A DNA stretch of 63,253 nt from Candidatus Pacearchaeota archaeon (GTDB lineage Archaea; Nanobdellota; Nanobdellia; Pacearchaeales; GW2011-AR1). The stretch lies in the NCBI GenBank assembly GCA_041654895.1, contig JBAZCR010000005.1:1-63253 (forward strand), in the 5' to 3' direction. The first letter of the stretch is position 1; each line of letters starts with the position of its first letter. Under the pieces are notes generated by a model. It made no database searches and was not told the DNA's origin. It saw nothing but the letters and a program-made list of their open reading frames with translations. Made by a program: the position numbers and the translations under genes. Below, piece after piece: positions 10,018 to 54,049 of this stretch.

Positions 10018-10118
10018 AGATTAAAAATAATTTGGTGATTTATAAATATTCCTTCTAATAACAGATTATATCTCTAGAGTGTATAAATTCTTAAAAGATA
10101 AAATTACTTATTTTTATA

Positions 10119-11708
10119 ATGAATGAAGAAAACAATAGTCTTTTACAAGGAATTTCTAAAAGAGATACCCAAAGAAATAATATACTTGCTGCAAGAGTCT
10201 TAGCAGAAACACTAAAAACAACTCTAGGACCTAAAGGAATGGATAAAATGCTTTTAGATAGTGCAGGTAATATCACAATAACAAACGATGGTGTAACAAT
10301 TTTAGAGGAAATGGAAATAGAACATCCTGCAGCTAAAATGCTGGTCGAAGTTTCTAAGACTCAGGAAAAAGAAGTTGGAGATGGTACAACAACAGTTGTA
10401 ATGATTGCAGGAAAATTATTAGAAAATGCAGAAAAGTTATTAGATTTAAAAATTCATCCTACTATTATAACTCAAGGTTATAGGCTTGCTCAAAAAAAAG
10501 CAATCGAAATTTTAGAAGATTTAACAATAGATATTAGTACAGAAGAAGAGTTACTCCAAGTTGCAAAAACTGCAATGACTGGAAAAAGCGCTGAATATCT
10601 AAAAGAGAAATTTTCTTCTATTATTCTTCAAGCAATTACTTTATTGAACCAAGGAAAAGATTTTGATATAAGAAATATTAGAATAGAAAAACAAAAAGGA
10701 GAATCAATAGAGGAAACAGAATTAATCCAAGGAATAATCTTAGATAAGGGAAGAGTTTCTATTGATATGCCTAAAGAAATTCAAGATGTTAAAGTTGCTT
10801 TAATTGAAGAAGCCCTAGAATTAAGATCTCTAGAAAACACAAGTAAAATTTCAATTGCTTCTCCAGAACAATTACAGAATTTTATTTCACAAGAAGATAT
10901 CATATTAAAAAATAAAGTTGAAAAAATAAAAAGAACAGGAGCAAGCTTAATACTTTGTCAAAAAGGAATTGATGAGTCTATTCAATTTTATTTAGCAAAG
11001 GCTGGAATTTATGCGATAAGAAGAGTCCCTAAATCAGACATGCAAGCAGTTTCAAAAGCTACTAATGCAAAAATTGTTGCAAGATTAGAAGATTTAGATT
11101 TAGATAGTCTTGGTTCTGCTCAAAAAGTATTTGAAAAAAAGATTAACGAAGATGAATTTACTTATATTATTGGTTGCGAGAATCCTCAAAATTTAACAAT
11201 CTTAATTAAAGGAAGTAGTGACCATATTTTAGATGAAATACAAAGAGCTATTGAAGATGCATTAAATGATGTTGCTTCAATCTTAAAAGATTCAAAAGTT
11301 GTTCCAGGAGGGGGTGCTATTGAGATAGAATTATCTCGTAGGTTAAAAGAATTTGCAAAAACATTAAATGGCAGAGAACAATTAGCAGTAGAAATCTTTG
11401 CTGAAAGTTTAGAATTCATTCCAATAACCTTGGCTGAAAATGCAGGATTAGATCCTATTGATATTTTAACAGAATTAAAAGTTGCTCATGAATCAAGCAA
11501 TCCTAATTTTGGTTTAAATCTTTTCAATAATAGAATAGAGGATATGTTAAAACAAGGAATCATTGAACCTTTAAGAGTTAAAACTCAAGCAATAGGCTCT
11601 GCAAGCGAAGTAGCTATAATGATTCTAAGAATTGACGATTTAATCGCAGCAAAAAAAAGAAAAGGAAATAATCTAAACAACCCAAATTCTATTTTAGATT
11701 ACGATTAG
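10119..11708 (+). CDS. ths: Thermosome subunit (group II chaperonin)
   Basis: 529 aa. [26 protein letters not shown] and VPGGGAIE are group II chaperonin signatures. Confidence 0.95.
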
Positions 11709-12918: not shown

Positions 12919-14130
12919 TTATCCTCTTAATGCTTGTACTGGATTTAATTTAGACGCTTGTTTTGCTGGAATATATCCTGCTATTAATCCGATTATAAAC
13001 GAGAAGAATGATGCTCCAATTAATAATGGCCAAGATAACATAACCTTAAACAATTCCCCTCCGATAATTTGCGTTGCAATATTTGAAACTAAATACGCAA
13101 TTGTTAAACCAAATAATGCTCCTGCTAGTCCTCCAAAAAAACCCAATAAACCTGACTCAATTAAAAAAATCTTCAATATATCCTTATTTTTAGCACCTAT
13201 TGCTTTCATAATACCTATTTCTTTTTTCCTTTCAACAATTGAAGTAAACATTGTATTTGCAACGCCAATTCCCCCAATTAAAAGTGCAATAGAAGCAATT
13301 GTGATAACTACCGCATTAACCATAATTAAGACAGTATTGATATTATTTAATGTAGTACCAGGTGTGTCAATTGAAAAAGATTCTTCCCCAATATCTTCTT
13401 TTCTATCTTTTCTAATTATTTCTTTGATTTCATTTGCAACTTCATCAACATATTTCTGATCTTCAACGTATATTTCAATTAAATCATAATTTCTTTTCAA
13501 ATTTAATAAATCTTCTAAATCAACATCCAATAAATAAACTGCTTGGTTAATAGCAAAAGATCCTGATTTTTCTAAAAATCCAATAACCCTAAATTCTTTA
13601 TTATTTATTTTAATATTATCCCCTAATTTGATTTCTTTACCGAAGATGTTATTTGTTAAAAAAGAATTTCCTAATAATATTTTTTGGTTTTGATAAGCAG
13701 AAAGAAAATCCCCTTGTTCTGTTTTTTTATACTTTCTATAAATTATTTTCAAATATTCATTTTTACTTGGAAGAGACTGAATAAAAGTAAATTGGGATTT
13801 TCCATTATAATTTAATGTTACAGGACGAAGATATGTTCCATAAACTGCATTAATATATTTAACATTTGAAATCAAATCTATTTCTCTTTGCGTTAAAGAT
13901 TTTGCAGAATTAGATCCTGGTGGTGCCATACCATTTTCAGCATTTTTTAATTGAATCTTATCAGGTTCTAAACTTGCAAATTGTGATGAGATAGCTAATT
14001 GTAATGCTTGACCTAAACTAATTAAAGCTACAACTGCAGCAATACCAATGAAAATCCCAATAACTGTTAACCAACTACGTAAACCTCTCCTTTTTAAATT
14101 TCTAAAACTTAATAAAAAATAATCTTTCAT
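12919..14130 (-). CDS. ABC transporter permease, MacB/FtsX family (paralog of the previous gene)
   Basis: 403 aa with the same architecture (ERKKEIGIMKAIGAK). There is a 1-nt gap to the downstream paralog. Confidence 0.8.
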   Translation of the reverse strand: MKDYFLLSFRNLKRRGLRSWLTVIGIFIGIAAVVALISLGQALQLAISSQFASLEPDKIQLKNAENGMAPPGSNSAKSLTQREIDLISNVKYINAVYGTYLRPVTLNYNGKSQFTFIQSLPSKNEYLKIIYRKYKKTEQGDFLSAYQNQKILLGNSFLTNNIFGKEIKLGDNIKINNKEFRVIGFLEKSGSFAINQAVYLLDVDLEDLLNLKRNYDLIEIYVEDQKYVDEVANEIKEIIRKDRKEDIGEESFSIDTPGTTLNNINTVLIMVNAVVITIASIALLIGGIGVANTMFTSIVERKKEIGIMKAIGAKNKDILKIFLIESGLLGFFGGLAGALFGLTIAYLVSNIATQIIGGELFKVMLSWPLLIGASFFSFIIGLIAGYIPAKQASKLNPVQALRG

Positions 14131-43371: not shown

Positions 43372-44097
43372 ATGGCAAAAAAAGGTTTTTTTAAAAGATT
43401 AACAGCGAAAACACTTTATTTTCCTGGTTGTCTAACAAAATCAATTTTGAAAAAAGAATATGAAAATTATAAAGAGATATTTAATATTTTAAAAATTGAT
43501 TATATTTTAATGAATGATAAAGATCTTTGTTGTGGACTTCCAGCATATAATGGAGGATATAAAAAAGAAACTATAAAATTAGCTAAAAAGTTTTTAGATT
43601 ATTTAAATGAAAAGAATATTTCTAAAATAATTACTAATTGTCCTTCGTGCTATCACACATTTAAAGAAATTTATCCTAAATTAATTAGGGGTTGGGATGT
43701 TGAAGTAGAACATGCAACTCAAACAGTTTACAACTCTCTTAAAAAAAAGCCATTAAAAAATTTATCAAAAGAAAAAGTTACTTATCACGACCCTTGTCAT
43801 TTGGGTAGATATGAAAATGTTTATGATGAACCTAGAAAAGTCATTGAATTTTTAGGAGGGCAAATTATTGAAATGAAATATAATAAAGAAAATGCTCTGT
43901 GTTGTGGTGGAGGAGGAGGAGTAAGAGCAAATTATGAAAGTTTAGCAAAAGACATAGCAAAAAAAAGAGTTCAAGGCATAACTGAAGAAGTTTCAAGAAT
44001 AATTACTCCTTGTGGACTTTGTTATTCACAATTAAACGAAGCAGACCCAAGGACAATTGAATTTTCAACTTTTGTTTTGAGTAAATTAAAAAGATGA
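43372..44097 (+). CDS. Cysteine-rich (CCG) domain Fe-S protein (GlcF/LutA/HdrD-like)
   Basis: Two CCG-type modules: LCCG...CPSC and DPCH...LCCGGGGG. Confidence 0.75.
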   Translation: MAKKGFFKRLTAKTLYFPGCLTKSILKKEYENYKEIFNILKIDYILMNDKDLCCGLPAYNGGYKKETIKLAKKFLDYLNEKNISKIITNCPSCYHTFKEIYPKLIRGWDVEVEHATQTVYNSLKKKPLKNLSKEKVTYHDPCHLGRYENVYDEPRKVIEFLGGQIIEMKYNKENALCCGGGGGVRANYESLAKDIAKKRVQGITEEVSRIITPCGLCYSQLNEADPRTIEFSTFVLSKLKR

Positions 44098-44129: not shown

Positions 44130-45917
44130 TTGAAGATGGAAGAAACAAAAATAAACTATAAAGCCACATTAAAAAAATATCTTAGTTATATTTGGGACTT
44201 TAAATTTGTTTTTTTAATGTTAATTTTTACTGTTTTTTTATTAGAAATTCTTAGTGTAATTCCAAATTTTTTATTTAAATCCTTAATTGACAATGGCACT
44301 TTATTTTCAAATAATATTTTAGGAAGAGCAGAGTTTGTTCATATTTTATTAATTATTTTTTCAACTTTTTTAGTTACAAGACTTTTTTTAGTTGTAATGT
44401 TTTATATTAGAGCAAAATACTTAGCAATAGTTGAAGCAAAAATTGTTTTTAATTTAAAGAACCATTTTTTTAATCATATAATTGACTTAGATCATAATTT
44501 TCATACAACACATAAATCAGGTTCACTAATTTCTAAATTAAGTAGAGGAGCAGGAGCAATAGAAGGTTTAACAGATGTTATATTCTTTAATTTTGCACCT
44601 TTTTTTGTTCAAGCAATAATTATTGGAGCTTCTTTAATCTATTTTAATTGGATCTCAGCACTAATCATTGGTTTAGTTACATTCTCCTTTGTCCTCTTTA
44701 GTATAAAAATGCAGAAATTCCAACAATTAGATAAGAAATCTTACAATAAATATGATAATTTAGAAAAAGGAAACATCTCTGACATTTTCATTAATATAGA
44801 TTCAATAAAATATTTTGGAAAAAACAAATTTGTTAAAAACTTGTATAAAAAATACTCTGGTAAAACAAAAGAAAAACAAGAAAAATATTATTCTTGGTTT
44901 AAATTTTTTGATTCAGGACAAATAATTATAATTTCTATTGGAACAGTTGCAATATTAATTTTCCCAATCTTAGATTTTTTAAATAAAAATATAACACTTG
45001 GAACATTGTCTTTTATTTATACAACTTATCTTAGTTTAATTGGAAGTTTATATGGTTTAGTCTGGGGCATTAGAGGAGTCTATCGTTCACTAACAGATTT
45101 ACAAGATTTGTTTGATTATGAAAACTATCAAAAAGAAATAGTTGATAAAGATAAAACAATACCTTTGAAAATAAAAAAAGGAGAAATAGAATTTAAAAAT
45201 ATTTATTTTGATTATGAAAAAAATAATGATTTATTTAAAAATTTTAATCTAAAAATACCAGCAAATAAAACTATAGCACTAGTCGGCTCTTCTGGTTGTG
45301 GAAAAACAAGTCTAGTTAAACTATTATATCGTCTATATAACCTAAAATCAGGTAAAATTCTAATTGACGGAATAAATATTGAAGATGTCGCCCAAGAAGA
45401 ACTAAGAAATGAATTGAGCATAGTCCCTCAAGAAGTAATATTATTTGATGATACCATTTATAACAACATAAAATTCGCAAATCCATTAGCAAAAAAGCAA
45501 GACGTCTTAAATGCAATAAAATTCGCTCAATTAGAAGAATTAATCAAAAAACTACCCAAAGGATATAATACAATCGTAGGAGAAAGAGGTGTAAAATTAT
45601 CAGGTGGACAAAAACAAAGAGTATCAATTGCAAGAGCAATCTTAGCAAATAAAAAAATCCTAATCCTTGACGAAGCAACATCAGCCTTAGACTCTGAAAC
45701 AGAACATAACATCAAAATAGCACTAGAAAACCTAATAAAAAACAGAACAACAATAGTAATCGCCCATAGACTCTCAACAATAATGAACGCAGATTTAATT
45801 GTAGTCTTAGACAATGGAAAAATAGTTCAAGTAGGAACACACAGAGAACTAATCACACAAGACGGAGAATATTCAAAACTCTGGGACTATCAAAAAGGTG
45901 GATTTTTACAAGAATAA
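44130..45917 (+). CDS. ABC exporter, fused permease/ATPase (ABCB/MsbA-like)
   Basis: 6-TM N-terminal domain, Walker A GSSGCGKTS, signature LSGGQKQRVSIARA, Walker B ILILDEATSALD. The track start is a TTG, and the ATG at 44136 is more likely. Confidence 0.9.
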   Translation: MKMEETKINYKATLKKYLSYIWDFKFVFLMLIFTVFLLEILSVIPNFLFKSLIDNGTLFSNNILGRAEFVHILLIIFSTFLVTRLFLVVMFYIRAKYLAIVEAKIVFNLKNHFFNHIIDLDHNFHTTHKSGSLISKLSRGAGAIEGLTDVIFFNFAPFFVQAIIIGASLIYFNWISALIIGLVTFSFVLFSIKMQKFQQLDKKSYNKYDNLEKGNISDIFINIDSIKYFGKNKFVKNLYKKYSGKTKEKQEKYYSWFKFFDSGQIIIISIGTVAILIFPILDFLNKNITLGTLSFIYTTYLSLIGSLYGLVWGIRGVYRSLTDLQDLFDYENYQKEIVDKDKTIPLKIKKGEIEFKNIYFDYEKNNDLFKNFNLKIPANKTIALVGSSGCGKTSLVKLLYRLYNLKSGKILIDGINIEDVAQEELRNELSIVPQEVILFDDTIYNNIKFANPLAKKQDVLNAIKFAQLEELIKKLPKGYNTIVGERGVKLSGGQKQRVSIARAILANKKILILDEATSALDSETEHNIKIALENLIKNRTTIVIAHRLSTIMNADLIVVLDNGKIVQVGTHRELITQDGEYSKLWDYQKGGFLQE

Positions 45918-45962
45918 CAAAAAATGCAAAACAAATTTAAACTCCCTTCAATATTATAAAAC

Positions 45963-48596
45963 ATGGGAAAAGAGGTGAGATGTAAACAGTTGACAGTGAA
46001 CAGTAGACAGTCGACCGTAAACCGTAAACTGCTAACAGCCCTAATCCTTTCTTCTATTTTATTAATCTCTTTTGTCGCTGTAACAATAGCAACAGGATTT
46101 TTTGGAACAAACACAACAAAGATATCCTCACTAGAAAAAGGATTAATCGGACACTGGATGTTAGATGTAGAAAACGGCGCAAAAGATTTAACCCCATATG
46201 GAAACCATGGGAATGTTATAGGAGCATCGTTGACAACAGGAGTAAAAGATGAACCAAATAGAGCATACAACTTTGCTTCTACAAATAGAATCGAGATGAC
46301 AGGCATTAGTTTGTCTAAAGATGCTTCTTTTTGTGCTTGGGGTAATGCAAATACTGCTGGTACAAATATGATGCTATTCTCGTGTAATTCAAACTCCATA
46401 ACAGGTCCAGATTTCTATTTTACAGCTAGTACAATCGCCTGGAATTCAGGAGATAGTGCCAGTACACCCTTTAAAAAAAATGGGGTAAATGTTGCTCAAC
46501 CTACATTAAATGAATGGCACCATTATTGTATTATTAGCAAATCAGATTTACCAAAAACTTATTTGTATGTTGATGGAGAGTATTATGGAGAAGCAAATTA
46601 TAAAAGCCCAGCTCAGACTAATAGGGGATTTATTATTGGAAATTATTATCCTGGACAAACAGGTTATGCTTGGAGAGGGAAAATAGCAGATTTTAGAATA
46701 TATAATAGACAATTATCTGAAGACGAAATCCAGCTTTTATATGATTCTCACAAGCCAACAGCCTCGGCATCTGATTTGAATAAAGGTCTAATTTTATATT
46801 CTCCTTTAAATGGTGAGAACGGTATAGACTTCACGATTAATGAGTATTCATACCCTACATTCAATACATCAAGCTCAAATGGAGGGTGGAGCCATTGGGG
46901 ACAAAGTGGTGCATCAGGAAGTCATTCCCAAAATACTAACAAAGATTACATTTTTGATAAAACAAATACTTATTCACATAAAGTTTCAAATGGTTTAGGT
47001 GCTACTGGTAACTATATCCTCTACCAGTCTCCACCTATCGAGGGTCTTACTTATAGATCTCTTTCAGCAATTATAAAGTTAAGTGATGGGAGTCAGATTA
47101 CTAATTCTAAAGTTTATCCTGCGTGGAATGCAATTGCATCTGGGAGCATCCCAAATAATAAGTGGACCTCTATAGAGTATTTAGGTGATGGTTTTTATTT
47201 ATGTAAGGCTGAAGGAATTAGACAAGATGGTAGTAATGATTTAGTTGGGATTTATGTTACTCAGGGTATAGAAGCTTATTTTTCTAATGTTCAGTTAGAA
47301 CAGAAAATTTATTCTAGTTCATTTGTTAACGGGGGAAGAAATGGTACTGTTGATGATAGAAGTGGATATTCAAATAAAGGAATAAATTTTGGAGCTACAT
47401 TAACAAATGGAAGAAAGGGAGAAAGTAAAGGGGCTTATGTTTTTGATGGAACCGATGATTATATTGAATTTTATAATAATAATTTATTTAATTCATTACC
47501 AGTTACCTTCTCCTTATGGTATTATCATGACAGTACCCATGGTGGCGATCTTATCAATAAATATTATTCTAACTCTGTAAATGGTTATAGCATTGCTCTC
47601 TCTTCTTCCACTGGAGGAATTAGGCTTTATTATTTTAAAAGTGGTTCAAATTATATAGAAAATTATAATAGTTACCATGGTCAATCAATTTTAGATTCTT
47701 GGAATCATGTTTCCATAAGTGTTGATGAAAATAATGCGAAAATTTATTTAAATGGTGAATTGATTGCAACTAAAAACTGGGTTGGAGTAGCAGGAAAACC
47801 TACAACTAATCAAAACTTAGCTCTAGGTTATTATCCTGGTGCTACTTCATCATATTCAAATAATATAATTTCTGATGTCCGTATCTACAATCGAGTTCTC
47901 TCTGAAGACGAAATAAAATTACTTTTTGATTCTTACAAACCAAAAGAAACAAGCACTGGAAGTTTAAACAAGGGTTTAGTATTTGATATGCCTTTGACAA
48001 CAAGACATATGAAATCAAGCACAATAGTATCAGATTTAACACCTTATGGAAATGATGGTACAGTGATGAATGGGGCAGTAGTCAGCGAAGATGGAACTAC
48101 GTTTGATGGAGTAAATGATTACATCGAGATATCTAATAATAACTTATTAAATTTTGAGGCTAAAAATTTTACTATTTCTTTCTGGACATATAGAACATCA
48201 GAAGGATATCAAGGAGGTTCATATATCTCTAAAGGAACTCACAACTCTGCAGGATTTGATATGTATGATTCTAGATTTGAAGTACGTGCAGAAAGTGGTT
48301 TAGTTGCTAGAGTAAAAATGAGTGCTAATTTTAATGTTTGGGAAATGCATACTATGGTAGTAAATCAGCAATCTTCTCCATATATTAAACATTATATCAA
48401 TGATATATTGGATCAAACAGGGTACACTGAATCAGGGAATAAAGGTAGCATAAGCAATCTTAGAAATTTAATAATAGGGAGAAGCAATGCTGGTGGAATT
48501 AATAGATATTTCAATGGTCAAATCTCCAATGTTAAAATATGGGATAGAGCATTAACTGACGATGAAATAAAACTTTTATATGATAAGGGGAGATGA
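45963..48596 (+). CDS. Large surface protein with three LamG (Laminin_G_3 / concanavalin-like) domains and an N-terminal TM anchor
   Basis: 877 aa. TM segment LLTALILSSILLISFVAVTIA. Three modules each end in a variant of F/VRIYNRxLSEDEIxLLYDSxKP (FRIYNRQLSEDEIQLLYDSHKP, VRIYNRVLSEDEIKLLFDSYKP, VKIWDRALTDDEIKLLYDKGR). Codons 7-25 are encoded by heptamer block R1. Confidence 0.7.
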   Translation: MGKEVRCKQLTVNSRQSTVNRKLLTALILSSILLISFVAVTIATGFFGTNTTKISSLEKGLIGHWMLDVENGAKDLTPYGNHGNVIGASLTTGVKDEPNRAYNFASTNRIEMTGISLSKDASFCAWGNANTAGTNMMLFSCNSNSITGPDFYFTASTIAWNSGDSASTPFKKNGVNVAQPTLNEWHHYCIISKSDLPKTYLYVDGEYYGEANYKSPAQTNRGFIIGNYYPGQTGYAWRGKIADFRIYNRQLSEDEIQLLYDSHKPTASASDLNKGLILYSPLNGENGIDFTINEYSYPTFNTSSSNGGWSHWGQSGASGSHSQNTNKDYIFDKTNTYSHKVSNGLGATGNYILYQSPPIEGLTYRSLSAIIKLSDGSQITNSKVYPAWNAIASGSIPNNKWTSIEYLGDGFYLCKAEGIRQDGSNDLVGIYVTQGIEAYFSNVQLEQKIYSSSFVNGGRNGTVDDRSGYSNKGINFGATLTNGRKGESKGAYVFDGTDDYIEFYNNNLFNSLPVTFSLWYYHDSTHGGDLINKYYSNSVNGYSIALSSSTGGIRLYYFKSGSNYIENYNSYHGQSILDSWNHVSISVDENNAKIYLNGELIATKNWVGVAGKPTTNQNLALGYYPGATSSYSNNIISDVRIYNRVLSEDEIKLLFDSYKPKETSTGSLNKGLVFDMPLTTRHMKSSTIVSDLTPYGNDGTVMNGAVVSEDGTTFDGVNDYIEISNNNLLNFEAKNFTISFWTYRTSEGYQGGSYISKGTHNSAGFDMYDSRFEVRAESGLVARVKMSANFNVWEMHTMVVNQQSSPYIKHYINDILDQTGYTESGNKGSISNLRNLIIGRSNAGGINRYFNGQISNVKIWDRALTDDEIKLLYDKGR
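45981..46036 (+). repeat. Heptamer block R1 (8 units)
   Basis: tgtaaac agttgac agtgaac agtagac agtcgac cgtaaac cgtaaac tgctaac. It lies inside the LamG 5' coding region and translates as CKQLTVNSRQSTVNRKLLT. Confidence 0.9.
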
Positions 48597-48598
48597 AA

Positions 48599-48647
48599 AG
48601 TAAACAGTTAACCGTAAACAGTCTACCTTCAACACTGAACAATTGAC
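48599..48647 (+). repeat. Heptamer block R2 (7 units)
   Basis: agtaaac agttaac cgtaaac agtctac cttcaac actgaac aattgac. It starts 3 nt after the LamG stop. The right flank TTCCTTCAAAC resembles the right flank of R6, TTTCCTTTCAC. Confidence 0.85.
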
Positions 48648-48652
48648 TTCCT

Positions 48653-49198
48653 TCAAACCAAGTACTGTAATGTTGACAAATCAAAAGCTAAAACTTCTTT
48701 TTTTTCATCATTAAACACATTTCTAATAAAACGACCATCAAAAGAAATAATGCAAGAGTGTTTAAATTGTCGTATATGTTTTTCTGTCGCTAAGAAAAGA
48801 GAAATGTCGTTTCCATAGTCTATAAATTTATTATGACTTAACAAATCATTCTTATTTATTTGAATTTCATCAAAATTTTTTAAATCTTCTAAACATTCCT
48901 TTTTTATAATTTTATATTCAGATTTTAATTCTTTTCTTATTTTGTTTATGAATTCAGATAAAATATAAGGAGTTATAATTACTTTAGATATTCTAAAATT
49001 AGTTAGCATTGTAGATAAACATTGTATTTGATTTTCTTTGATGTTTGCTTTTTCTAAAATAAAGTTTTTTTCTGGATTTAGTTTGACATATTTATCTAAA
49101 AAGAAAATCATCAAAACACAAGTATCAAATATTACTCCATTATCAAAATATCTTTTTTTAAAATAATATGAGTCATCAAAAGGATATTCAACTATCAT
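48653..49198 (-). CDS. PIN-like domain protein (putative nuclease/toxin), unusually long
   Basis: 181 aa. The acidic residues are spaced as in PIN domains: VIFDTCVLM, ITPYILSEF, NDISLFL, ISFDGRF. Confidence 0.55.
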   Translation of the reverse strand: MIVEYPFDDSYYFKKRYFDNGVIFDTCVLMIFFLDKYVKLNPEKNFILEKANIKENQIQCLSTMLTNFRISKVIITPYILSEFINKIRKELKSEYKIIKKECLEDLKNFDEIQINKNDLLSHNKFIDYGNDISLFLATEKHIRQFKHSCIISFDGRFIRNVFNDEKKEVLAFDLSTLQYLV

Positions 49199-49458
49199 TT
49201 CTTCAACTCTTCTTCATGAATCTCTTTTGTCTCAAATATGTTTTTGTCTTTTATATTTATTCTTGCTTCATAAAAGAATCTTTTACCTTCTTTATTATCA
49301 CGAGGGATAAAACTATATTTAACAATATAAGTATCTTCTGCACAATTTGGTCTAATAGAGTGCACTTTAAATCCAAAATAACCTAAACTACCATAAGAAC
49401 CTACAATAATATCAATGACTGTTTCAATAACTTCTTTGGGACCTAAACTCGCCTCCAT
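49195..49458 (-). CDS. Small hypothetical protein translationally coupled to the PIN-like gene (putative partner/antitoxin)
   Basis: 87 aa. It shares an ATGA stop/start overlap with the PIN-like gene. No RHH, AbrB or HTH motif is visible. Confidence 0.5.
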   Translation of the reverse strand: MEASLGPKEVIETVIDIIVGSYGSLGYFGFKVHSIRPNCAEDTYIVKYSFIPRDNKEGKRFFYEARINIKDKNIFETKEIHEEELKK

Positions 49459-49522
49459 TTTAACCCCGCTAATATTTTTTAGACGAAAGAACTATTTAAA
49501 CATAATCACATCTTTGGGATAA

Positions 49523-49711
49523 CGGTTAGCAGTGGACAGTAGACAGTAAACCGTAAACAGTAAACCGTAAACCGTAAACAGTAAACAGTAAACCGTAAAC
49601 AGTAAACCGTAAACCGTAAACAGTAAACCGTAAACCGTAAACAGTAAACAGTAAACCGTAAACCGTAAACAGTAAACCGTAAACCGTAAACAGTAAACCG
49701 TAAACAGTCTA
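49523..49711 (+). repeat. Heptamer block R3: 27-unit tandem array of CAGTAAA / CCGTAAA
   Basis: Counted by hand. Three degenerate units (cggttag cagtgga cagtaga) are followed by 23 perfect units and a final variant unit cagtcta. With A=cagtaaa and B=ccgtaaa, the order of the 23 is A B A B B A A B A B B A B B A A B B A B B A B. The array lies between the divergent PIN-operon and lipoprotein promoters. Confidence 0.95.
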
Positions 49712-49773
49712 CCCCCTTTTTGTCGCTACTCTTAAAACATAACATATTTAAATAGTGAATATTTCTATATTTC

Positions 49774-50547
49774 ATGCAAAAGAAAAGTAATTACATTAAA
49801 AATGGATTAATTGTTGGAGCTTTGTCTTTACCACTTTTATTTGGAGGATGTTATAAGGAAGGTCAACGGTCTACAGTCGACGGTCTACAGTCTACAGTTA
49901 ACAGTGAACAGTCAACAGTTTACAGTCAACAGACTCCGGCTGATAAAAAAATACCTAAATCTTTAGAGAGTATAGTTGGTTCTAAAAAGTTTCATGAAAA
50001 TCTATCAAATAAAGAATCCAAATCCTTAGATGAGAAATATGGTGATGATGTTGACTCAATACATCGTAAACTTTTTGATGAGGATATCGCATTATATGGA
50101 AAATCATCAACTGGCCTAGACATCTATACAGATATTGAAGAAAATGAAAATAAAGGATTCTATAACGTTGTATGGTATTCAGTGTTTAACAAAAAATTAG
50201 TGCGGTTAGCACGAAAAACAATACGAGAGACTCAACCACATACAACTGAAACATTTCTGGATATGTTTAAGAAGCAATATGGATATTTTACATATTTCTA
50301 TGGGTTAGGTCGTAGTACTATTAGTATATATAAAAATATAGAATCTGATGACTATGACCAACGATTTCCAGCGTTACTTTTTTCTATACCAAACTCTTCT
50401 TTTGTTAAATTTAAAAGAGATGACGATTTTGGCGTATTAAAAAGGGATGGAAGCATAGTAAATGAATATGGAATTATAGATAATATTTCAAAAGAAGACT
50501 TAGGAAAAGTGGAAAAACTCTGGGAAGCAACAGCTTTTTGGGACTGA
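49774..50547 (+). CDS. Putative lipoprotein of unknown function, with a heptamer-encoded linker
   Basis: 257 aa. Signal peptide plus lipobox-like LLFGGC, then GQRSTVDGLQSTVNSEQSTVYSQQ encoded by block R4, then a globular domain I cannot assign. Confidence 0.6.
   Translation: MQKKSNYIKNGLIVGALSLPLLFGGCYKEGQRSTVDGLQSTVNSEQSTVYSQQTPADKKIPKSLESIVGSKKFHENLSNKESKSLDEKYGDDVDSIHRKLFDEDIALYGKSSTGLDIYTDIEENENKGFYNVVWYSVFNKKLVRLARKTIRETQPHTTETFLDMFKKQYGYFTYFYGLGRSTISIYKNIESDDYDQRFPALLFSIPNSSFVKFKRDDDFGVLKRDGSIVNEYGIIDNISKEDLGKVEKLWEATAFWD
49861..49930 (+). repeat. Heptamer block R4 (10 units), in frame inside the lipoprotein gene
   Basis: ggtcaac ggtctac agtcgac ggtctac agtctac agttaac agtgaac agtcaac agtttac agtcaac. 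Confidence 0.9.
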
Positions 50548-50551
50548 TATC

Positions 50552-50586
50552 CGTAAACCGTCCACTGCCAACTGTTTACCGTAAAC
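50552..50586. repeat. Heptamer block R5 (5 units, partly inverted relative to R3)
   Basis: cgtaaac cgtccac tgccaac tgtttac cgtaaac. The reverse complement of 50557-50573 (AGTTGGCAGTGGACGGT) matches 49524-49540 (GGTTAGCAGTGGACAGT) at 14 of 17 positions. Confidence 0.8.
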
Positions 50587-50598
50587 CATCCGATACTT

Positions 50599-50658
50599 AT
50601 ATAAACTAAAGTTAATACATATAAACTATGGTTAACATATATAAACAGGAGTTGACAT
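50599..50658 (+). repeat. Three tandem 20-bp repeats spanning the nucleotidyltransferase start codon
   Basis: ATATAAACTAAAGTTAATAC / ATATAAACTATGGTTAACAT / ATATAAACAGGAGTTGACAT. Each unit ends in a GTTRAY element related to the heptamer core. The ATG at 50628 lies in unit 2. Confidence 0.85.
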
Positions 50659-51176
50659 TACTTCAACAAAATATATTAAGACTTTTATTTGTAAAAACAG
50701 GTTCTCAATTAAATCAAAGACAAATTGCAAATTTTTTAAATGTTACTTCTCCAGCCATAACAAAAGCACTCCCACATCTTGAGAAAGAAAAATTTATTAA
50801 AATTAGTAAGGATAAATACTCAAAAAGATTATCAATTGAATTAAATACAGACAATTTAAATGTCGTTCAATTGAAAAGAATAGATAATTTAAGCTTAATT
50901 TATGAAACAGGATTTGCAGATTTTCTCGAAAAGAATTTTATGGGAAGGACAATAATCTTATTCGGAAGTTATTCAAGAGGAGAAGACCATTTTAATTCAG
51001 ATATTGATATCGCCATAATCGGAGGAAAAGAAAAAAAATTAGATTTAATAAAATTTGAAAAGATATTTGAAAAACAAATCAATATAAATTTTTATTCTTC
51101 TTTCAAAGAAATTCATAATGATTTAAAGGAGAGCATATTAAATGGAATATTATTATTAGGAAGTGTTGAATTATGA
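50628..51176 (+). CDS. wHTH-fused minimal nucleotidyltransferase (MNT-type)
   Basis: 182 aa. N-terminal wHTH (LNQRQIANFLNVTSPAITKALPHLEKEKFI), then the NTase motif ILFGSYSRGEDHFNSDIDIAII. Confidence 0.75.
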   Translation: MVNIYKQELTLLQQNILRLLFVKTGSQLNQRQIANFLNVTSPAITKALPHLEKEKFIKISKDKYSKRLSIELNTDNLNVVQLKRIDNLSLIYETGFADFLEKNFMGRTIILFGSYSRGEDHFNSDIDIAIIGGKEKKLDLIKFEKIFEKQININFYSSFKEIHNDLKESILNGILLLGSVEL

Positions 51177-51616
51177 GATCAAAGAATTTTGATGAATTTA
51201 TAAGAATTGGAATCGTTAAAAAACAAACTCCTGATAAATCAAGAGGAAATTTTCTTATTAAAGAGTCAGAAAAAAATTTTAGTTATCTTTTAGAATTAAT
51301 TAAAAAAATAAAAATAGATGATATAAGTGCCAATAATTATGTTAAGATTTGTTACGATATAATCATGGGTTTAATAAGGGCAAAAATGTTTTTTGATGGT
51401 TATAAGACATCCGGATTTAGAGCACATGAGGTAGAAGTCACTTATTTTGAGAAAATAGGTTTTCCAGAAAAAGATGTTTTATTCTTAGATAAAATGAGAT
51501 ATTATAGGAATGGAATATTATATTATGGAACAATTATAAACGAAGAATACACACAAAAAGTAATTGATTTTACAAAAAAGATATATCATACATTAAAGGA
51601 AGCAGTTGACCGTTAA
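51173..51616 (+). CDS. HEPN-like domain protein (partner of the nucleotidyltransferase)
   Basis: 147 aa, helical. It has an ATGA overlap with the NTase gene. MRYYRNGILYYG resembles the conserved HEPN C-terminal helix. Confidence 0.6.
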   Translation: MRSKNFDEFIRIGIVKKQTPDKSRGNFLIKESEKNFSYLLELIKKIKIDDISANNYVKICYDIIMGLIRAKMFFDGYKTSGFRAHEVEVTYFEKIGFPEKDVLFLDKMRYYRNGILYYGTIINEEYTQKVIDFTKKIYHTLKEAVDR

Positions 51617-51638
51617 CCGTTTACTGTTTACATCTCAC
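51604..51638. repeat. Heptamer block R6 (5 units), containing the right terminal inverted repeat
   Basis: agttgac cgttaac cgtttac tgtttac atctcac. It overlaps the HEPN stop codon. Confidence 0.85.
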
Positions 51639-51684
51639 TTTCCTTTCACGAAAGAATTTTAAATCTATCTTAATTATACACTAT

Positions 51685-52794
51685 ATGGTAATTATCACAC
51701 CTTATTTATATGACGCTTCTCAAATAAAAGGAAAGGCATCAAAAGTTTTTTTTCCAAAGACAATAAATGAAGTTAAGAGAATCGTTCAATCAAATAAACA
51801 TATTTGTATAAGAGGTGGAGGCACAAGTTTAGTTGGAAGTAGTGTTCCTCAAAATGATGTTGTCTTAGACATGTCTAAATTAAATCACATCTCAAATTTA
51901 GATATAAACAGAAAAACTGTAGAGGTGGAAGCAGGAGTAATACTAGATGACTTACAAGATTACTTATCAGAAAACAATTTAGAATTCCCAGTTAATCCTT
52001 CAAGCCACGCAGTTTGCACTATTGGTGGAATGATCGCTACAGATGCCGTCGGAAGTAGAGCAATAAAATACGGACGAACATCAAAATGGATTAGATGGAT
52101 TGAAACAATAGATGCAAATGCAAATCTAACAAGAAACACAAACACAGAAATATCAGATTTTGCAAAGATGGAGGGAATAACAGGAATAATTGTAAAAGCC
52201 TGTTTAAATTTAACTAACAAAACACAAAAGACTGGCTCAATTTTTAAACTAAAAACAATAGAAGAAGTAATTCAAAAAACAAAAGAACTAAAGAAAAACC
52301 CCTCAATATCAATGATAGAATATTTAGATAAATCTGCTTCTAATAATATTGGTTTAGGGGATAACTATCATTTAATCGCTGAATTTGAAGACGATTCTGG
52401 CGAACTAAAAGATGAAAAATATACAAAACTATTACAAAAAAGAGACGAAGTATATCCTTTTTTAGCAGGAGAAGGCTATACACACATTGAAGATCCTAAA
52501 ATTATTTTAGACAAAATTGCCGGTTTATTAAAATGGTTAGAAAAAAATGATATTCCTTGTTTTGGCCATATTTCCGTAGGATTATTACATCCCTGCTTTA
52601 ATAAATCACAAGAAAATCTAATACCAGAAATGATGAAAATTGTTAAAAAACATAGTGGACAAATAAGTGGCGAACATGGAATAGGACTATTAAAAAAACA
52701 ATATGTAGACGAACAAGATAAAAAAATTATACAAAATATTAAAAAAAGAAAAGACAAACAAAACAAATTTAACCAAGGAAAAATAATTAATTAA
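51685..52794 (+). CDS. FAD-binding oxidoreductase (GlcD / D-lactate dehydrogenase-like), short form
   Basis: 369 aa. RGGGTSLVGSSVP (FAD_binding_4) and the C-terminal SGEHGIGLLKK motif. Confidence 0.75.
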   Translation: MVIITPYLYDASQIKGKASKVFFPKTINEVKRIVQSNKHICIRGGGTSLVGSSVPQNDVVLDMSKLNHISNLDINRKTVEVEAGVILDDLQDYLSENNLEFPVNPSSHAVCTIGGMIATDAVGSRAIKYGRTSKWIRWIETIDANANLTRNTNTEISDFAKMEGITGIIVKACLNLTNKTQKTGSIFKLKTIEEVIQKTKELKKNPSISMIEYLDKSASNNIGLGDNYHLIAEFEDDSGELKDEKYTKLLQKRDEVYPFLAGEGYTHIEDPKIILDKIAGLLKWLEKNDIPCFGHISVGLLHPCFNKSQENLIPEMMKIVKKHSGQISGEHGIGLLKKQYVDEQDKKIIQNIKKRKDKQNKFNQGKIIN

Positions 52795-53800: not shown

Positions 53801-54049
53801 ATGGGAAAAATTGTTAAAAAAGGTGTTATCGAAAGAAAACCAGGTCATCTTTATTATGTAGATGCTCAAGGTAATGTTTGTGAGGCAAAGATGGCTAGGG
53901 GTGGTAAAAAGAAAAAAGCTGTTGCTAAAAAACCTGTTGCTAAAAAACCAGTAGCAAAAAAGACAGTAGCAAAAAAAGCACCAGCAAAAAAAGCACCTGC
54001 TAAAAAGCCAGTAGCAAAGAAAAAAGCTGCTCCTAAAAAGAAAAAATAA
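53801..54049 (+). CDS. Small basic protein with a histone-H1-like (A/P)(V/A)AKK repeat tail; putative nucleic-acid-binding protein
   Basis: 82 aa. N-terminal region GVIERKPGHLYYVDAQGNVCEAKM, then AVAKKPVAKKPVAKKTVAKKAPAKKAPAKKPVAKKKAAPKKKK. A strong GGAGGT Shine-Dalgarno sequence lies 7 nt upstream. Confidence 0.65.
   Translation: MGKIVKKGVIERKPGHLYYVDAQGNVCEAKMARGGKKKKAVAKKPVAKKPVAKKTVAKKAPAKKAPAKKPVAKKKAAPKKKK

What the first reader, a model, noticed from the sequence alone, without database searches (positions are those of the whole stretch)
45975..51638. Accessory island bounded by a perfect 16-bp terminal inverted repeat and partitioned into gene cassettes by six blocks of a 7-bp [A/C]GTNNAC repeat
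Seen directly: GTGAGATGTAAACAGT (45975-45990) and its exact reverse complement ACTGTTTACATCTCAC (51623-51638) sit at the outer edges of the outermost repeat blocks. Between them are six tandem blocks with strict 7-bp periodicity, 62 units in all: R1 45981-46036 (8 units), R2 48599-48647 (7), R3 49523-49711 (27), R4 49861-49930 (10), R5 50552-50586 (5) and R6 51604-51638 (5). The blocks sit at the seams between four modules: (1) a triple-LamG surface protein, (2) a PIN-like gene plus an 87-aa partner on the opposite strand, (3) a lipoprotein gene, and (4) a wHTH-nucleotidyltransferase/HEPN pair. R2 and R6 share a similar right flank (TTCCTTCAAAC and TTTCCTTTCAC). Both sides of the island are housekeeping genes (ABC exporter; FAD oxidase, DUF167). 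I did not notice comparable heptamer tracts elsewhere in the window. No integrase, transposase or Cas gene lies inside. Inference: this could be a non-autonomous, TIR-bounded cargo element whose ends are built from short tandem repeats, as in foldback transposons. It could also be a cassette array whose heptamer tracts are recombination seams used by a recombinase encoded elsewhere. I know of no described archaeal element with this architecture.
Basis: partly seen in the sequence, partly recalled or inferred. Interest (0 to 1): 0.9.

Follow-up and report, generated by a model that had tools for sequence, protein, structure and literature searches.

The report
Heptamer microsatellites lining an archaeal surface-protein island
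A 5.7-kb accessory gene island in a tiny DPANN archaeon is real, but its 7-bp repeat blocks are slippage-prone microsatellites that accompany a family of surface-protein genes, not the ends of a new transposon.

Summary
The 16-bp inverted repeat is exact, and all six period-7 GTNNAC blocks in the 63-kb window lie in 45982-51638.

The segment is a genuine accessory insertion. In the closest relatives (FAD oxidase 84% and 77% identical, five assemblies) the ABC exporter abuts the FAD oxidase across 39 bp, and there are no heptamer tracts.

The transposon reading is not supported:
- The 16-mer occurs only at this locus.
- Exact 16-bp inverted pairs are as common as chance in this AT-rich DNA.
- The arms lie inside the insertion edges, with no clear target duplication.
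- Gene order is identical in five assemblies.

The tracts behave as heptanucleotide simple-sequence repeats. Only the long pure tract R3 varies, with five alleles in five assemblies, always by whole units. R1 and R4 lie inside coding sequence, where they encode polar heptapeptides in a signal-anchor leader and a lipoprotein tether.

All five members examined of a narrow LamG paralog family, at four loci in two organisms, carry one tract in the 5' leader and one just after the stop codon. Heptanucleotide repeats of this general kind are long known in bacteria.

A role as homology patches for module exchange, or in phase variation, is not excluded.

The parts
45918..51684 (.). Accessory insertion, defined against the sister genomes. 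It is everything between the ABC-exporter stop and the FAD-oxidase start. The true insertion edges are roughly 45925 and 51648, each +/- about 10 nt.
   Evidence: In L140-L143 (84% FAD oxidase identity) and L144 (77%) the two genes are 39 bp apart with conserved synteny. GC is 0.304 against 0.267 for the rest of the window, and LamG and lipoprotein GC3 is 0.21 against 0.141 +/- 0.026 for host ORFs.
45975..45990 (+). Left arm of the exact 16-bp inverted repeat. It comprises a GTGAGAT edge plus the first heptamer unit and lies inside the LamG coding sequence (codons V-R-C-K-Q).
45963..48596 (+). Triple-LamG surface protein of 877 aa with an N-terminal signal anchor. The leader reads MGKEVRCKQLTVNSRQSTVNRK, followed by the transmembrane segment LLTALILSSILLISFVAVTIATGFFG.
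   Evidence: Pfam Laminin_G_3 at 1.4e-56, three stretches. The paralogs P0127, P0129, P0130 and P0128 share the leader.
45982..46036 (+). R1: 7 strict and 1 degenerate heptamer units, all within the LamG leader-coding region. Units are imperfect and avoid in-frame TAA.
   Evidence: The tract is identical in 5 assemblies.
48599..48647 (+). R2: 4 strict and 3 degenerate units. It starts 3 nt after the LamG stop codon and ends 6 nt from the stop of the convergent 181-aa gene.
   Evidence: The same post-stop position is seen in the LamG paralogs.
48653..49198 (-). 181-aa ORF. It is PIN-like only by motif reading (IFDTCVL...ITPYILSEF...SFDGRF); no database support was found.
   Evidence: No Pfam, NCBIfam, PADLOC or PDB-sequence match. 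The AlphaFold single-sequence model has pLDDT 33 and is unusable.
49195..49458 (-). 87-aa ORF that overlaps the start of the 181-aa ORF by 4 nt, forming an operon-like pair. Its family is unknown.
49488..49500 (-). TATA/BRE-like box (ACTATTTAAACAT) about 30 nt upstream of the 87-aa gene start. It is the mirror image of the box at 49743-49755.
   Evidence: The flank alignment matches 12 of 13 bases. The promoter role is an inference.
49523..49712 (+). R3: 27 units, almost pure GTAAAC[A/C], with a 21-bp super-period. It is intergenic and lies between two divergent promoter-like boxes. It is the only length-polymorphic block.
   Evidence: TRF gives 24.7 copies at 89% matches, rising to 95% at period 21. 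Five alleles occur in five assemblies, with 23/21/18/18'/15 core units. Eight short-read contigs end inside it.
49743..49755 (+). TATA/BRE-like box (ATATTTAAATAGT) about 25 nt upstream of the lipoprotein start codon.
   Evidence: inference
49774..50547 (+). Lipoprotein of 257 aa with lipobox LFGGC. Its family is unknown.
   Evidence: The exact protein is present in 16 contigs from many samples.
49861..49930 (+). R4: 10 imperfect units inside the lipoprotein ORF. They encode the tether QRSTVDGLQSTVNSEQSTVYSQQ directly after the lipobox Cys.
   Evidence: The tract is identical in 14 contigs.
50552..50586 (+). R5: 5 units (2 strict, 1 degenerate, 2 strict), starting 5 nt after the lipoprotein stop codon.
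   Evidence: It forms no stable hairpin (z = 0.44).
50598..50658 (+). Three 20-bp direct repeats (TATAAAC-N4-GTTRAYA) that overlap the start codon of the wHTH-nucleotidyltransferase gene. They are operator-like.
   Evidence: TRF period 20, 3.0 copies. The operator role is an inference.
50628..51176 (+). Fusion of a MarR-type winged helix and a minimal nucleotidyltransferase (182 aa).
   Evidence: Pfam NTP_transf_2 at 1.6e-9 and MarR at 4.4e-7. NCBIfam MntA at 3.4e-8, below its cutoff. PADLOC PDC-M05A at 1.1e-12.
51173..51616 (+). 147-aa partner, overlapping the upstream gene by 4 nt. It is HEPN-like only by context and an RNxxxY motif.
   Evidence: PADLOC PDC-M05B at 9.6e-10. No Pfam or NCBIfam match.
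51604..51638 (+). R6: 4 strict units plus the ATCTCAC edge, in the opposite (T-rich) orientation. It contains the stop codon of the 147-aa gene, and its last 16 nt form the right arm of the inverted repeat.
   Evidence: Its reverse complement aligns with the LamG start region beyond the 16-mer: CGTGAAAGGAAA|GTGAGATG against CATGGGAAAAGAG|GTGAGATG.
44130..45917 (+). ABC exporter, the left flanking core gene.
   Evidence: Pfam ABC_membrane and ABC_tran. It is adjacent to the FAD oxidase in the sister genomes.
51685..52794 (+). FAD-binding oxidase, the right flanking core gene.
   Evidence: Pfam FAD_binding_4 and FAD-oxidase_C. Homologues are named Pacearchaeota or Nanoarchaeia.

Best explanation
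The 5.7-kb block is a lineage-specific accessory island in a Pacearchaeota/Nanoarchaeia (DPANN) genome.

**Cargo**
- a LamG surface protein
- a lipoprotein
- a wHTH-nucleotidyltransferase plus partner pair (PADLOC PDC-M05 type, toxin-antitoxin or defence-like)
- a pair of unknown function (181 aa and 87 aa)

**What the six heptamer blocks are**
They are not transposon ends or site-specific recombination sites. They are heptanucleotide simple-sequence repeats with unit N-GT-NN-AC. In this lineage they accompany a small family of LamG surface-protein genes. Every member examined has one tract in the leader-coding 5' end and one directly after the stop codon.

**How they behave (shown)**
- The tracts change length in whole 7-bp units. 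The long pure tract R3 differs in every assembly.
- The short imperfect tracts are stable.

**How they work (inferred)**
- Length change comes from replication slippage or unequal exchange.
- Where a tract is translated, three units equal 21 nt, or seven codons. Selection has removed in-frame TAA, which makes the units imperfect. The result is a polar (Q/K)(S/L)TV(N/D/Y)xx heptapeptide repeat.
- That repeat serves as the cytoplasmic n-region of the LamG signal anchor and as the flexible tether after the lipoprotein Cys.
- Between genes the tracts act as variable spacers. R3 separates two divergent promoters.

**The 16-bp 'TIR'**
It is a by-product. GTNNAC is its own reverse complement, so any two tracts read as imperfect inverted repeats in register. 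The extra 7 nt most likely come from an inverted, decayed copy of the LamG start region at the right end.
For: **The island is an insertion**
- There is an empty site in 5 assemblies of 2 sister lineages, and no tracts in 77 kb of relatives.

**The tracts behave as simple-sequence repeats**
- R3 has 5 alleles in 5 assemblies that differ by whole units. R1, R2, R4, R5, R6 and the gene order are identical.
- Short-read contigs break in R3.

**The tracts go with the LamG family**
- In the same genome, LamG-699 (L347), LamG-833 and LamG-701 (L349, L545) carry tracts. In another organism, LamG-919 (L352) does too.
- All have 5' leader tracts, and four of the five have clear post-stop tracts (that of LamG-699 is degenerate).
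- No other chains occur in those loci apart from neighbouring accessory toxin-antitoxin genes.
- Leaders end in a conserved GTAAACCGTAAAC, which encodes TVNRK.
- The leader family is narrow: 7 hits among 1.84 billion representatives.

**The general kind is common and described**
- At least 120 genome loci across bacterial phyla and one archaeal MAG hold 5 or more GTNNAC units. Of 131 tracts, 90 lie outside any ORF of at least 100 aa. Some are in-frame and encode QSTVNS-type peptides.
- The literature covers heptanucleotide simple-sequence repeats (PMC4692102, PMC4679880).

**In L352 the tracts also lie about 100 bp upstream of core genes** (rpl1 and a DHH-family gene).

**Evidence against transposon ends**

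Against: - The R3 length differences could be partly collapse of a 189-bp repeat in short-read assembly. No reads were available to check.
- Simple-sequence-repeat behaviour alone does not explain two things: why the tracts are confined to LamG-containing accessory DNA in about 110 kb of this genome, and why they sit so tightly against stop codons (0-21 nt).
- The shared 7-nt edge GTGAGAT at the two outermost tract ends is unlikely by chance. I estimate roughly 1e-2 after multiple testing.
- The function of the translated peptides is inferred only.
Confidence: 0.6

Rival explanations
1. **Homology seams.** The tracts are register-tolerant patches of homology. General recombination (RadA-type, with no dedicated recombinase) would use them to insert, delete and shuffle LamG and toxin-antitoxin modules. 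The island was then assembled, and can be remodelled, at the tracts.
For: - Tracts lie at module boundaries in three loci of the same genome.
- Each LamG ORF is bracketed by direct tracts.
- The LamG units sit exactly at synteny breakpoints relative to the sister genome: SNF2|PPDK and 457-aa|463-aa.
- A terminal motif GTAAAC[A/T]GTCTACC is shared by R2, R3 and the 3' tract of LamG-701.
- A chimeric LamG (P0358) exists in another sample.
Against: - Gene order and five of the six tracts are identical in five assemblies.
- The chimeric paralog joins inside the conserved LamG inter-domain region, not at a tract. It comes from a 2.3x-coverage contig, so it may be a misassembly.
- The inner edges of R2 and R3 are the degenerate ones, as expected for independent repeats rather than halves of a split tract.
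- Any non-coding element in a compact genome must lie at a gene boundary.
Confidence: 0.17
2. **Contingency (phase-variation) loci.** Copy-number change of a 7-nt unit in the 5' coding region (R1, R4) would switch surface proteins on and off by frameshift. Change in R3 would modulate the two divergent promoters.
For: - The repeats sit in the 5' coding region of two secreted proteins, and the unit length is not a multiple of 3.
- R3 is hypervariable and lies between two promoter-like boxes.
- The arrangement resembles the pentamer repeats in the signal-peptide region of Neisseria opa genes (own knowledge) and promoter heptamers in Haemophilus hmw (PMC8262952, listed).
Against: - The coding tracts are imperfect; adjacent units differ, which suppresses slippage. 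They are invariant and in frame in all assemblies and cluster members.
- R3 lies outside the TATA-to-start interval, so length change would not alter core promoter geometry.
Confidence: 0.1
3. **Protein-binding arrays.** The tracts would be tandem sites for a DNA- or RNA-binding protein. Candidates are the island's own MarR-type wHTH domain or the small wHTH-like genes next to other LamG paralogs. Such binding could co-regulate or mark the accessory genes.
For: - The operator-like 20-bp repeats upstream of the wHTH gene contain TAAAC and GTTRAC half-sites that resemble the heptamer core.
- Small divergent HTH-like genes precede LamG-699, LamG-833 and LamG-701.
- GT and AC are strictly kept while the NN positions vary.
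- Regulatory roles have been proposed for cyanobacterial heptamers (bioRxiv 10.1101/2022.06.06.494920).
Against: - No direct evidence exists.
- Conservation of GT/AC is partly built into how the tracts were defined.
- Control frames (CANNTG, ACNNGT, GTNNCA, GANNAC) give similar numbers of degenerate heptamer tracts in viral contigs.
- The small upstream genes are barely similar to one another.
Confidence: 0.07
4. **Non-autonomous TIR-bounded or foldback-like mobile element**, mobilised in trans, with ends built from the heptamer tracts.
For: - An exact 16-bp inverted repeat sits at the outermost tract edges.
- The segment is absent from sister genomes.
- A weaker inverted resemblance (23 of 30 bases) joins the first and last tracts of the L347 island.
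Against: - The 16-mer is unique to this locus among all fetched loci.
- Comparable exact inverted pairs occur by chance in this DNA.
- The arms lie inside the apparent insertion edges, and the left arm is coding sequence.
- There is no target-site duplication.
- No transposase was found among the window ORFs scanned.
- Single LamG units have direct, not inverted, tracts.
- There is no structural heterogeneity in five assemblies.
Confidence: 0.04

Closest known systems
Cyanobacterial STRR heptanucleotide repeats (Mazel et al. 1990, cited in PMC4692102; the unit sequences are from my own knowledge, e.g. STRR3 CAACAGT = GTCAACA in register)
   Same: - Both are tandem 7-bp units, often of mixed variants, mostly intergenic and sometimes in ORFs, at many loci per genome.
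- R4's consensus GTCAACA is the same unit.
- Microcoleus, Tychonema, Nostoc and Calothrix dominate the genome hits for GTNNACN x5.
   Different: - Here the host is a DPANN archaeon.
- In the DNA seen, the tracts are restricted to accessory islands around one gene family.
- There is a fixed 5'-leader and post-stop arrangement.
TAACTGA direct repeats of marine Beggiatoaceae, cyanobacteria and Bacteroidetes (MacGregor 2015, PMC4679880)
   Same: - Both are heptamer direct repeats concentrated next to start codons and in intergenic DNA.
- Both are translatable in one orientation into a 7-aa repeat.
- Both have a patchy phylogenetic distribution that suggests transfer.
- The function of both is unknown.
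- The reverse complement, CAGTTAT, is one base away from the NGTNNAC frame.
   Different: - The unit differs.
- Those arrays are usually short (2-6 copies).
- No link to one gene family was reported there.
GGGAATC / GGGGAYT heptamers of Xanthomonas and Nostoc (Rehm et al. 2015, PMC4692102)
   Same: - Both are intergenic heptamer simple-sequence repeats.
- Both show extensive length variation between close relatives while the flanking genes are conserved.
- Inverted pairs occur in both.
   Different: Those repeats are G-rich and form quadruplexes. The tracts here have no G-runs.
Phase-variable repeats in leader-coding regions of surface-protein genes, such as the Neisseria opa CTCTT pentamers (own knowledge)
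   Same: Both place a repeat whose unit is not a multiple of 3 inside the signal or leader-coding part of surface-protein genes.
   Different: - The opa repeats are perfect and observed to vary.
- R1 and R4 are imperfect and were invariant in all assemblies.
Integron gene cassettes with attC sites, including the archaeal integrons reported by Ghaly et al. 2022 (own knowledge)
   Same: - Both have compact ORF-plus-3'-element units.
- Both carry toxin-antitoxin and surface-protein cargo in an accessory array.
   Different: - No IntI gene is present.
- The tracts are tandem repeats without the attC imperfect-palindrome fold.
- The modules have their own promoters and mixed orientation.
Tandem repeats of Borg elements that create intrinsically disordered protein regions (Schoelmerich et al. 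2023, own knowledge)
   Same: Both are archaeal tandem nucleotide repeats that lie between genes and inside ORFs, where they add polar, probably disordered peptide repeats.
   Different: - Borg in-ORF units are multiples of 3 and perfect.
- Here a 7-nt unit is read in all three frames over a 21-nt period.

Membership tests
Heptanucleotide simple-sequence repeat (STRR-like) | Head-to-tail tandem copies of a 7-bp unit | tested here: met
   There are 53 strict GTNNAC units at exact 7-bp spacing in 7 chains. TRF reports period 7 or 21.
Heptanucleotide simple-sequence repeat (STRR-like) | Copy number differs between close strains by whole units while the flanks stay identical | tested here: met
   R3 measures 206/192/171/171'/150 bp between fixed anchors in five assemblies. 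Caveat: collapse during short-read assembly is not excluded.
Heptanucleotide simple-sequence repeat (STRR-like) | Recurs at several loci of the genome and in other genomes, mostly in non-coding DNA | tested here: met
   Tracts occur at three loci in this genome and in another Pacearchaeota contig that includes core-gene upstream regions. At least 120 loci were found in other prokaryotes.
TIR-bounded non-autonomous transposon (MITE or foldback type) | Terminal inverted repeats lie exactly at the insertion boundaries | tested here: not met
   Against the 39-bp empty site, the window has 57 bp to the left of the left arm and 46 bp to the right of the right arm. The left arm lies behind the LamG promoter and start codon. 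The intergenic DNA has diverged, so the edges are known only to about +/-10 nt.
TIR-bounded non-autonomous transposon (MITE or foldback type) | Target-site duplication flanks the element | tested here: inconclusive
   Only TATA-like AAATTTAAA and AATTTTAAA sequences occur on both sides. They are promoter boxes and are not identical.
TIR-bounded non-autonomous transposon (MITE or foldback type) | Multiple copies share the same ends | tested here: not met
   The 16-mer was found only at this locus among 352 loci, including two other islands of the same genome. The whole genome was not available.
TIR-bounded non-autonomous transposon (MITE or foldback type) | A cognate transposase exists in the genome | not testable with these tools
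   None was found among the window ORFs of at least 130 aa that were scanned (direct scans to about 36 kb; precomputed Pfam from about 39.6 kb; three ORFs at about 36.1-39.2 kb had no Pfam scan). The rest of the genome was not seen.
Integron-like cassette array | Adjacent tyrosine-recombinase IntI gene and attI site | tested here: not met
   No integrase domain appears in the precomputed or scanned Pfam results around the locus.
Integron-like cassette array | attC sites: imperfect palindromes that fold as single strands | tested here: not met
   The sense-strand folds of R2, R5, R6, R1 and R4 have z-scores between -1.2 and +1.2.
Integron-like cassette array | Cassette content or order varies between strains | tested here: not met
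   The order is identical in five assemblies. The only contrast with sister genomes is presence or absence of the whole island.
Phase-variable contingency locus | A repeat in the 5' coding region or promoter whose unit is not a multiple of 3 | tested here: met
   R1 and R4 lie in 5' coding regions, and R3 lies between divergent promoter-like boxes.
Phase-variable contingency locus | Frame-shifting or expression-changing length variants are observed in populations | tested here: not met
   R1 and R4 are identical and in frame in every contig and cluster member. No read-level data were available.
Type VII HEPN-MNT toxin-antitoxin pair | A minimal nucleotidyltransferase (MntA-like) gene | tested here: met
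   Pfam NTP_transf_2 at 1.6e-9, above its cutoff. NCBIfam MntA scores 33 bits, below its 60-bit cutoff.
Type VII HEPN-MNT toxin-antitoxin pair | An adjacent HEPN-domain toxin with the Rx4-6H motif | tested here: inconclusive
   The 147-aa partner has no Pfam or NCBIfam HEPN hit. It matches PADLOC PDC-M05B at 9.6e-10. Its motif reads RNGILYY, with Y in place of H.
PIN-domain nuclease (181-aa ORF) | A match to a PIN profile or fold with four conserved acidic residues | tested here: inconclusive
   There is no profile or PDB-sequence hit. The structure model has pLDDT 33. Only a motif-level resemblance remains (IFDTCVL, and others).

The most novel reading that the evidence does not exclude
In these episymbiotic DPANN archaea the heptamer tracts could be a purpose-built variation system. 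Each LamG surface-protein cassette, and nearby toxin-antitoxin modules, would be bracketed by register-tolerant repeat arrays. Those arrays would let general recombination swap, add or delete host-interaction genes. Slippage within them would switch or tune expression. That would be a recombinase-free cassette and contingency system not yet described in Archaea.
Probability: 0.15. Interest if true: 0.7.

Novelty: new member of a known kind. Interest (0 to 1): 0.35.

Why it matters
Heptanucleotide tandem repeats are the commonest long simple-sequence repeats in many bacteria. They are still functionally unexplained, and they are scarcely documented in Archaea.

This locus gives a clean archaeal case with useful handles:
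- a defined empty site in sister genomes
- one hypervariable tract among five stable ones
- a fixed arrangement around a surface-protein gene family (a leader tract plus a post-stop tract)
- translation of a 7-nt unit into a 7-aa repeat

DPANN archaea depend on cell-surface contact with hosts. If the tracts promote gain, loss or switching of LamG adhesin-like proteins, they would bear on how these organisms vary their host-interaction surface.

As it stands, the finding is an instructive but not categorically new feature. The mobile-element reading should be dropped.

Tried and rejected
**Is GTNNAC a specially enriched heptamer frame? Rejected.**
In viral contigs GTNNACN x5 gave 78 loci. The controls gave 54 (CANNTG), 71 (ACNNGT), 100 on both strands (GTNNCA) and at least 120 (GANNAC). 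The fraction of mixed-unit tracts was similar across all of them.

**Are the tracts arrays of restriction sites, with GTNNAC avoided elsewhere? Rejected.**
Outside the island GTNNAC occurs 63 times against 76.8 expected (z = -1.4).

**Are the tracts RNA structures or terminators? Rejected.**
- Rfam finds nothing in the island.
- Sense-strand folds are no better than shuffles.
- Only the untranscribed-sense minus strand of R3 folds well (z = -6.5), through G-U pairs. This follows from ACNGU self-complementarity.

**Does conserved flank sequence mark a mobile unit around each block? Rejected.**
No flank similarity goes beyond the 7-nt GTGAGAT.

**Are R2 and R3 two halves of one tract split by insertion of the 181-aa/87-aa pair? 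Rejected.**
Their inner edges are the decayed ones.

**Work that led nowhere**
- The structure of the 181-aa protein: the single-sequence AlphaFold model has pLDDT 33 and is unusable, so no fold search was run.
- The metagenome scan for FAD-oxidase relatives gave only three loci, one of them useful (L137, 61% identity).
- The papers by Mrazek 2007 and Mazel 1990 are not held in the library. Their content is cited second-hand from PMC4692102 and PMC4679880.
- P0129 could not be looked up by exact sequence. It was recovered through the P0130 contig instead.

Full report
**1. Observation.**
The window has 27% G+C. The 16-mer GTGAGATGTAAACAGT (45975-45990) and its exact reverse complement (51623-51638) are present. 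I listed every run of GTNNAC cores spaced exactly 7 bp apart. All seven runs of two or more units fall in 45982-51631: 7, 4, 26, 10, 2+2 and 4 strict units. Mononucleotide shuffles give 0.35 such runs per 63 kb. TRF independently reports the period-7 and period-21 arrays.

ORF analysis corrects two points.
- R1 lies inside the 5' end of the LamG ORF (45963-48596). Its leader reads MGKEVRCKQLTVNSRQSTVNRK and precedes a transmembrane segment.
- R4 lies inside the lipoprotein ORF (49774-50547), right after the lipobox Cys, where it encodes QRSTVDGLQSTVNSEQSTVYSQQ.
- R2 and R5 begin 3 and 5 nt after stop codons. R6 contains a stop codon. R3 is intergenic.

**2. Organism and cargo.**
The window encodes MCM, thermosome, archaeal topoisomerase I, CDC48 and a FlaI-type ATPase. 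Homologues of its FAD oxidase are named Pacearchaeota or Nanoarchaeia. It is therefore a DPANN archaeon.
- The LamG protein has three Laminin_G_3 domains.
- The 182-aa protein is a MarR-type wHTH fused to a nucleotidyltransferase. Together with the 147-aa partner it matches the PADLOC candidate system PDC-M05 A/B.
- The 'HEPN' label has no Pfam or NCBIfam HEPN support (the 147-aa partner matches only PADLOC PDC-M05B), and the 'PIN-like' label has no profile, PDB-sequence or structural support at all.
- No integrase or transposase was seen among the ORFs of at least 130 aa scanned directly up to about 36 kb or in the precomputed Pfam tables from about 39.6 kb onward; three ORFs at about 36.1-39.2 kb had no Pfam scan. 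A RadA/Rad51-like gene lies at 3307-4038.

**3. It is a real accessory insertion.**
Exact-protein look-ups recovered the same locus from at least five independent assemblies (L121/L128, L122, L129, L130, plus short Logan contigs). Gene order was identical in all.

Relatives whose FAD oxidase is 84% identical (L140-L143, four assemblies) or 77% identical (L144) keep the whole neighbourhood: MCM, TruB, Taw1, CCG, ABC exporter, FAD oxidase, DUF167 and onward. In them the ABC exporter is followed by the FAD oxidase after 39 bp. They hold no GTNNAC chain in 12-21 kb. A more distant relative (61% identical, L137) lacks the ABC exporter as well. Island G+C is slightly raised, and LamG and lipoprotein GC3 is about 2.5 SD above the host ORFs.

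**4. It is not a TIR-bounded element.**
- Exact inverted pairs of at least 16 bp within 10 kb number 10 in the window. Markov-randomised sequence averages 6.1, with a maximum of 12.
- Nine of the 16 bases are one heptamer unit, whose GT..AC core is self-complementary.
- The 16-mer occurs only at this locus among all 352 loci fetched, which include two further islands of the same genome.
- Alignment with the empty site places the homologous FAD-oxidase promoter region from about 51649 onward. The LamG promoter and start codon lie to the left of the left arm. The arms are therefore internal to the inserted DNA, and no clear target duplication exists.
- The reverse complement of the right end aligns with the LamG start region beyond the 16-mer: CGTGAAAGGAAA|GTGAGATG against CATGGGAAAAGAG|GTGAGATG, where every mismatch is a purine transition. 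This suggests an inverted, decayed copy of a LamG leader rather than a transposon terminus (inference).
- The similar right flanks of R2 and R6 are coincidental. The R2 copy is the end of the 181-aa coding sequence.

**5. The tracts behave as microsatellites.**
Between fixed anchors R3 measures 206, 192, 171, 171 (a different internal order) and 150 bp in five assemblies. These are five alleles that differ by whole units. R1, R2, R4, R5 and R6 are identical everywhere. Eight short-read contigs end inside R3. Assembly collapse of a 189-bp repeat cannot be excluded without reads. R3 sits between two mirror-image TATA-like boxes (49488-49500 and 49743-49755), each about 25-30 nt from a start codon. 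It therefore lies upstream of both core promoters.

**6. The tracts belong to a LamG gene family.**
A protein search with the LamG protein found that P0127, P0128, P0129 and P0130 share its leader. Each has a heptamer-coded n-region of variable length (for example RLTVNGKQLTVNRRRLTVNRK) that ends in TVNRK. The conserved transmembrane segment LLISFVAVTIATGFFG follows it.

| LamG gene | Source | 5' tract | 3' tract |
|---|---|---|---|
| P0127 (LamG-699) | another contig of the same genome (L347) | 10014-10086 | see below |
| P0130 (LamG-833) | same population (L349) | 3803-3855 | 6260-6300 |
| P0129 (LamG-701) | same population (L349) | 11141-11160 | 13234-13260 |
| P0128 (LamG-919) | a different organism, 33% G+C (L352) | 4768-4829 | post-stop tract (strict chain 7519-7531; degenerate units run on to about 7555) |

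- In L347, further tracts lie around a RelE/YoeB-like pair and at the border with a YchF-type GTPase gene. There are none elsewhere in the 16.5 kb.
- In L349 and L545 no other tracts occur.
- In L352 tracts also sit about 100 bp upstream of rpl1 and of a DHH-family gene, at both contig ends.
- The sister genome lacks these LamG genes and has no tracts in 22 kb. The LamG units sit at synteny breakpoints.
- The 67-aa leader finds only 7 proteins among 1.84 billion representatives.

**7. The general kind is known.**
A scan of one genome per species for five or more GTNNACN units stopped at its 120-locus limit.
- Hits came from cyanobacteria, Gemmatimonadota, Acidobacteriota, Bacteroidota, Chloroflexota, Patescibacteria and one archaeal MAG, across 28-71% G+C.
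- Of 131 tracts, 90 lay outside any ORF of at least 100 aa. Some lay in frame in real proteins and encoded QSTVNS-type repeats.
- Control frames are about as frequent in viral contigs, so the GTNNAC frame is not special in itself.

The literature describes this kind of repeat, with functions still unsettled:
- heptanucleotide repeats as the most abundant long simple-sequence repeats in many bacteria
- the cyanobacterial STRRs
- GGGAATC repeats in Xanthomonas
- TAACTGA repeats in Beggiatoaceae, cyanobacteria and Bacteroidetes

**8. Mechanism.**
- Shown: the insertion status; the tract positions; R3 length polymorphism in unit steps; coding use of R1 and R4; the association with the LamG family.
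- Inferred: slippage or unequal exchange as the length-change mechanism; selection against in-frame TAA as the cause of imperfect coding units; the peptide roles (n-region and tether); the origin of the right arm as a leader relic.
- Not excluded: the tracts as homology patches for module exchange; phase variation; protein-binding arrays.
- Tested without support: tracts as restriction-site arrays and as RNA structure.

**9. Verdict.**
The island is real and the repeats are real. The architecture is best read as a lineage-specific family of heptanucleotide microsatellites that travels with LamG surface-protein genes. This is a new archaeal member of a known, poorly understood repeat class, not a new mobile element.

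Noticed in passing
window 50598-50658: Three 20-bp direct repeats (TATAAAC-N4-GTTRAYA), each an imperfect palindrome, overlap the start codon of the wHTH-nucleotidyltransferase gene. They look like its operator, and their half-sites resemble the heptamer core.
   Followed up: partly
window 49488-49500 and 49743-49755: Mirror-image ACTATTTAAA(C/T)AT boxes flank R3, each about 25-30 nt from a start codon. They are probably TATA/BRE elements of two divergent, near-leaderless transcripts.
   Followed up: partly
L545 10001-12508 (P0358), compared with L349: A LamG protein is identical to LamG-833 for 636 aa and then switches to the C-terminal domain of LamG-701. The 7 kb between the two paralogs, which includes PEP synthase, is missing from the contig. 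This is either recombination between direct paralogs or a misassembly at 2.3x coverage.
   Followed up: partly
L349 versus L350/L351: Relative to the sister genome (PEP synthase 93% identical), the block 463-aa / SNF2 / 456-aa / PEP synthase is rearranged. The two LamG genes sit exactly at the new junctions.
   Followed up: partly
L352 2-28 and 9254-9301: In a different Pacearchaeota contig (33% G+C) heptamer tracts lie about 100 bp upstream of the rpl1 gene and of a DHH-family gene, at both contig ends. In that organism the tracts are therefore not confined to accessory genes.
   Followed up: partly
L347 12162-12842: A second island of the same genome carries a weak RelE/YoeB-like 105-aa ORF and a 95-aa partner next to a LamG paralog. 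Heptamer tracts lie at its borders, and the C-terminus of the 95-aa ORF runs into one of them.
   Followed up: partly
window 49506-49775 (minus strand): R3 is open in the minus-strand frame listed, which yields a spurious 89-aa ORF (CLRFTVY repeats; by eye the other two minus frames are also stop-free). As RNA the minus strand would fold strongly through G-U pairs (z = -6.5), but it lies upstream of the 87-aa gene's promoter.
   Followed up: yes
window 53801-54049 (tandem repeat 53912-54031): An 82-aa lysine-rich protein has KKPVAKK-type repeats encoded by a 15/30-bp tandem array. It gives a weak HC2 histone-like Pfam hit and may be a small chromatin or nucleic-acid-binding protein.
   Followed up: no
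window 43372-44097 and 51685-52794, compared with L137 7569-11092: In a more distant relative, the CCG-domain gene and the FAD oxidase are separated by two different genes (91 aa and 461 aa) instead of the ABC exporter. The ABC exporter is therefore itself a lineage-specific neighbour.
   Followed up: no
L009, L010, L018, L037, L052, L087 and other genome loci: In many bacterial loci two heptamer tracts lie 50-150 bp apart. In L087 two tracts of opposite orientation abut each other and could form a long hairpin. What lies between paired tracts was not examined.
   Followed up: no
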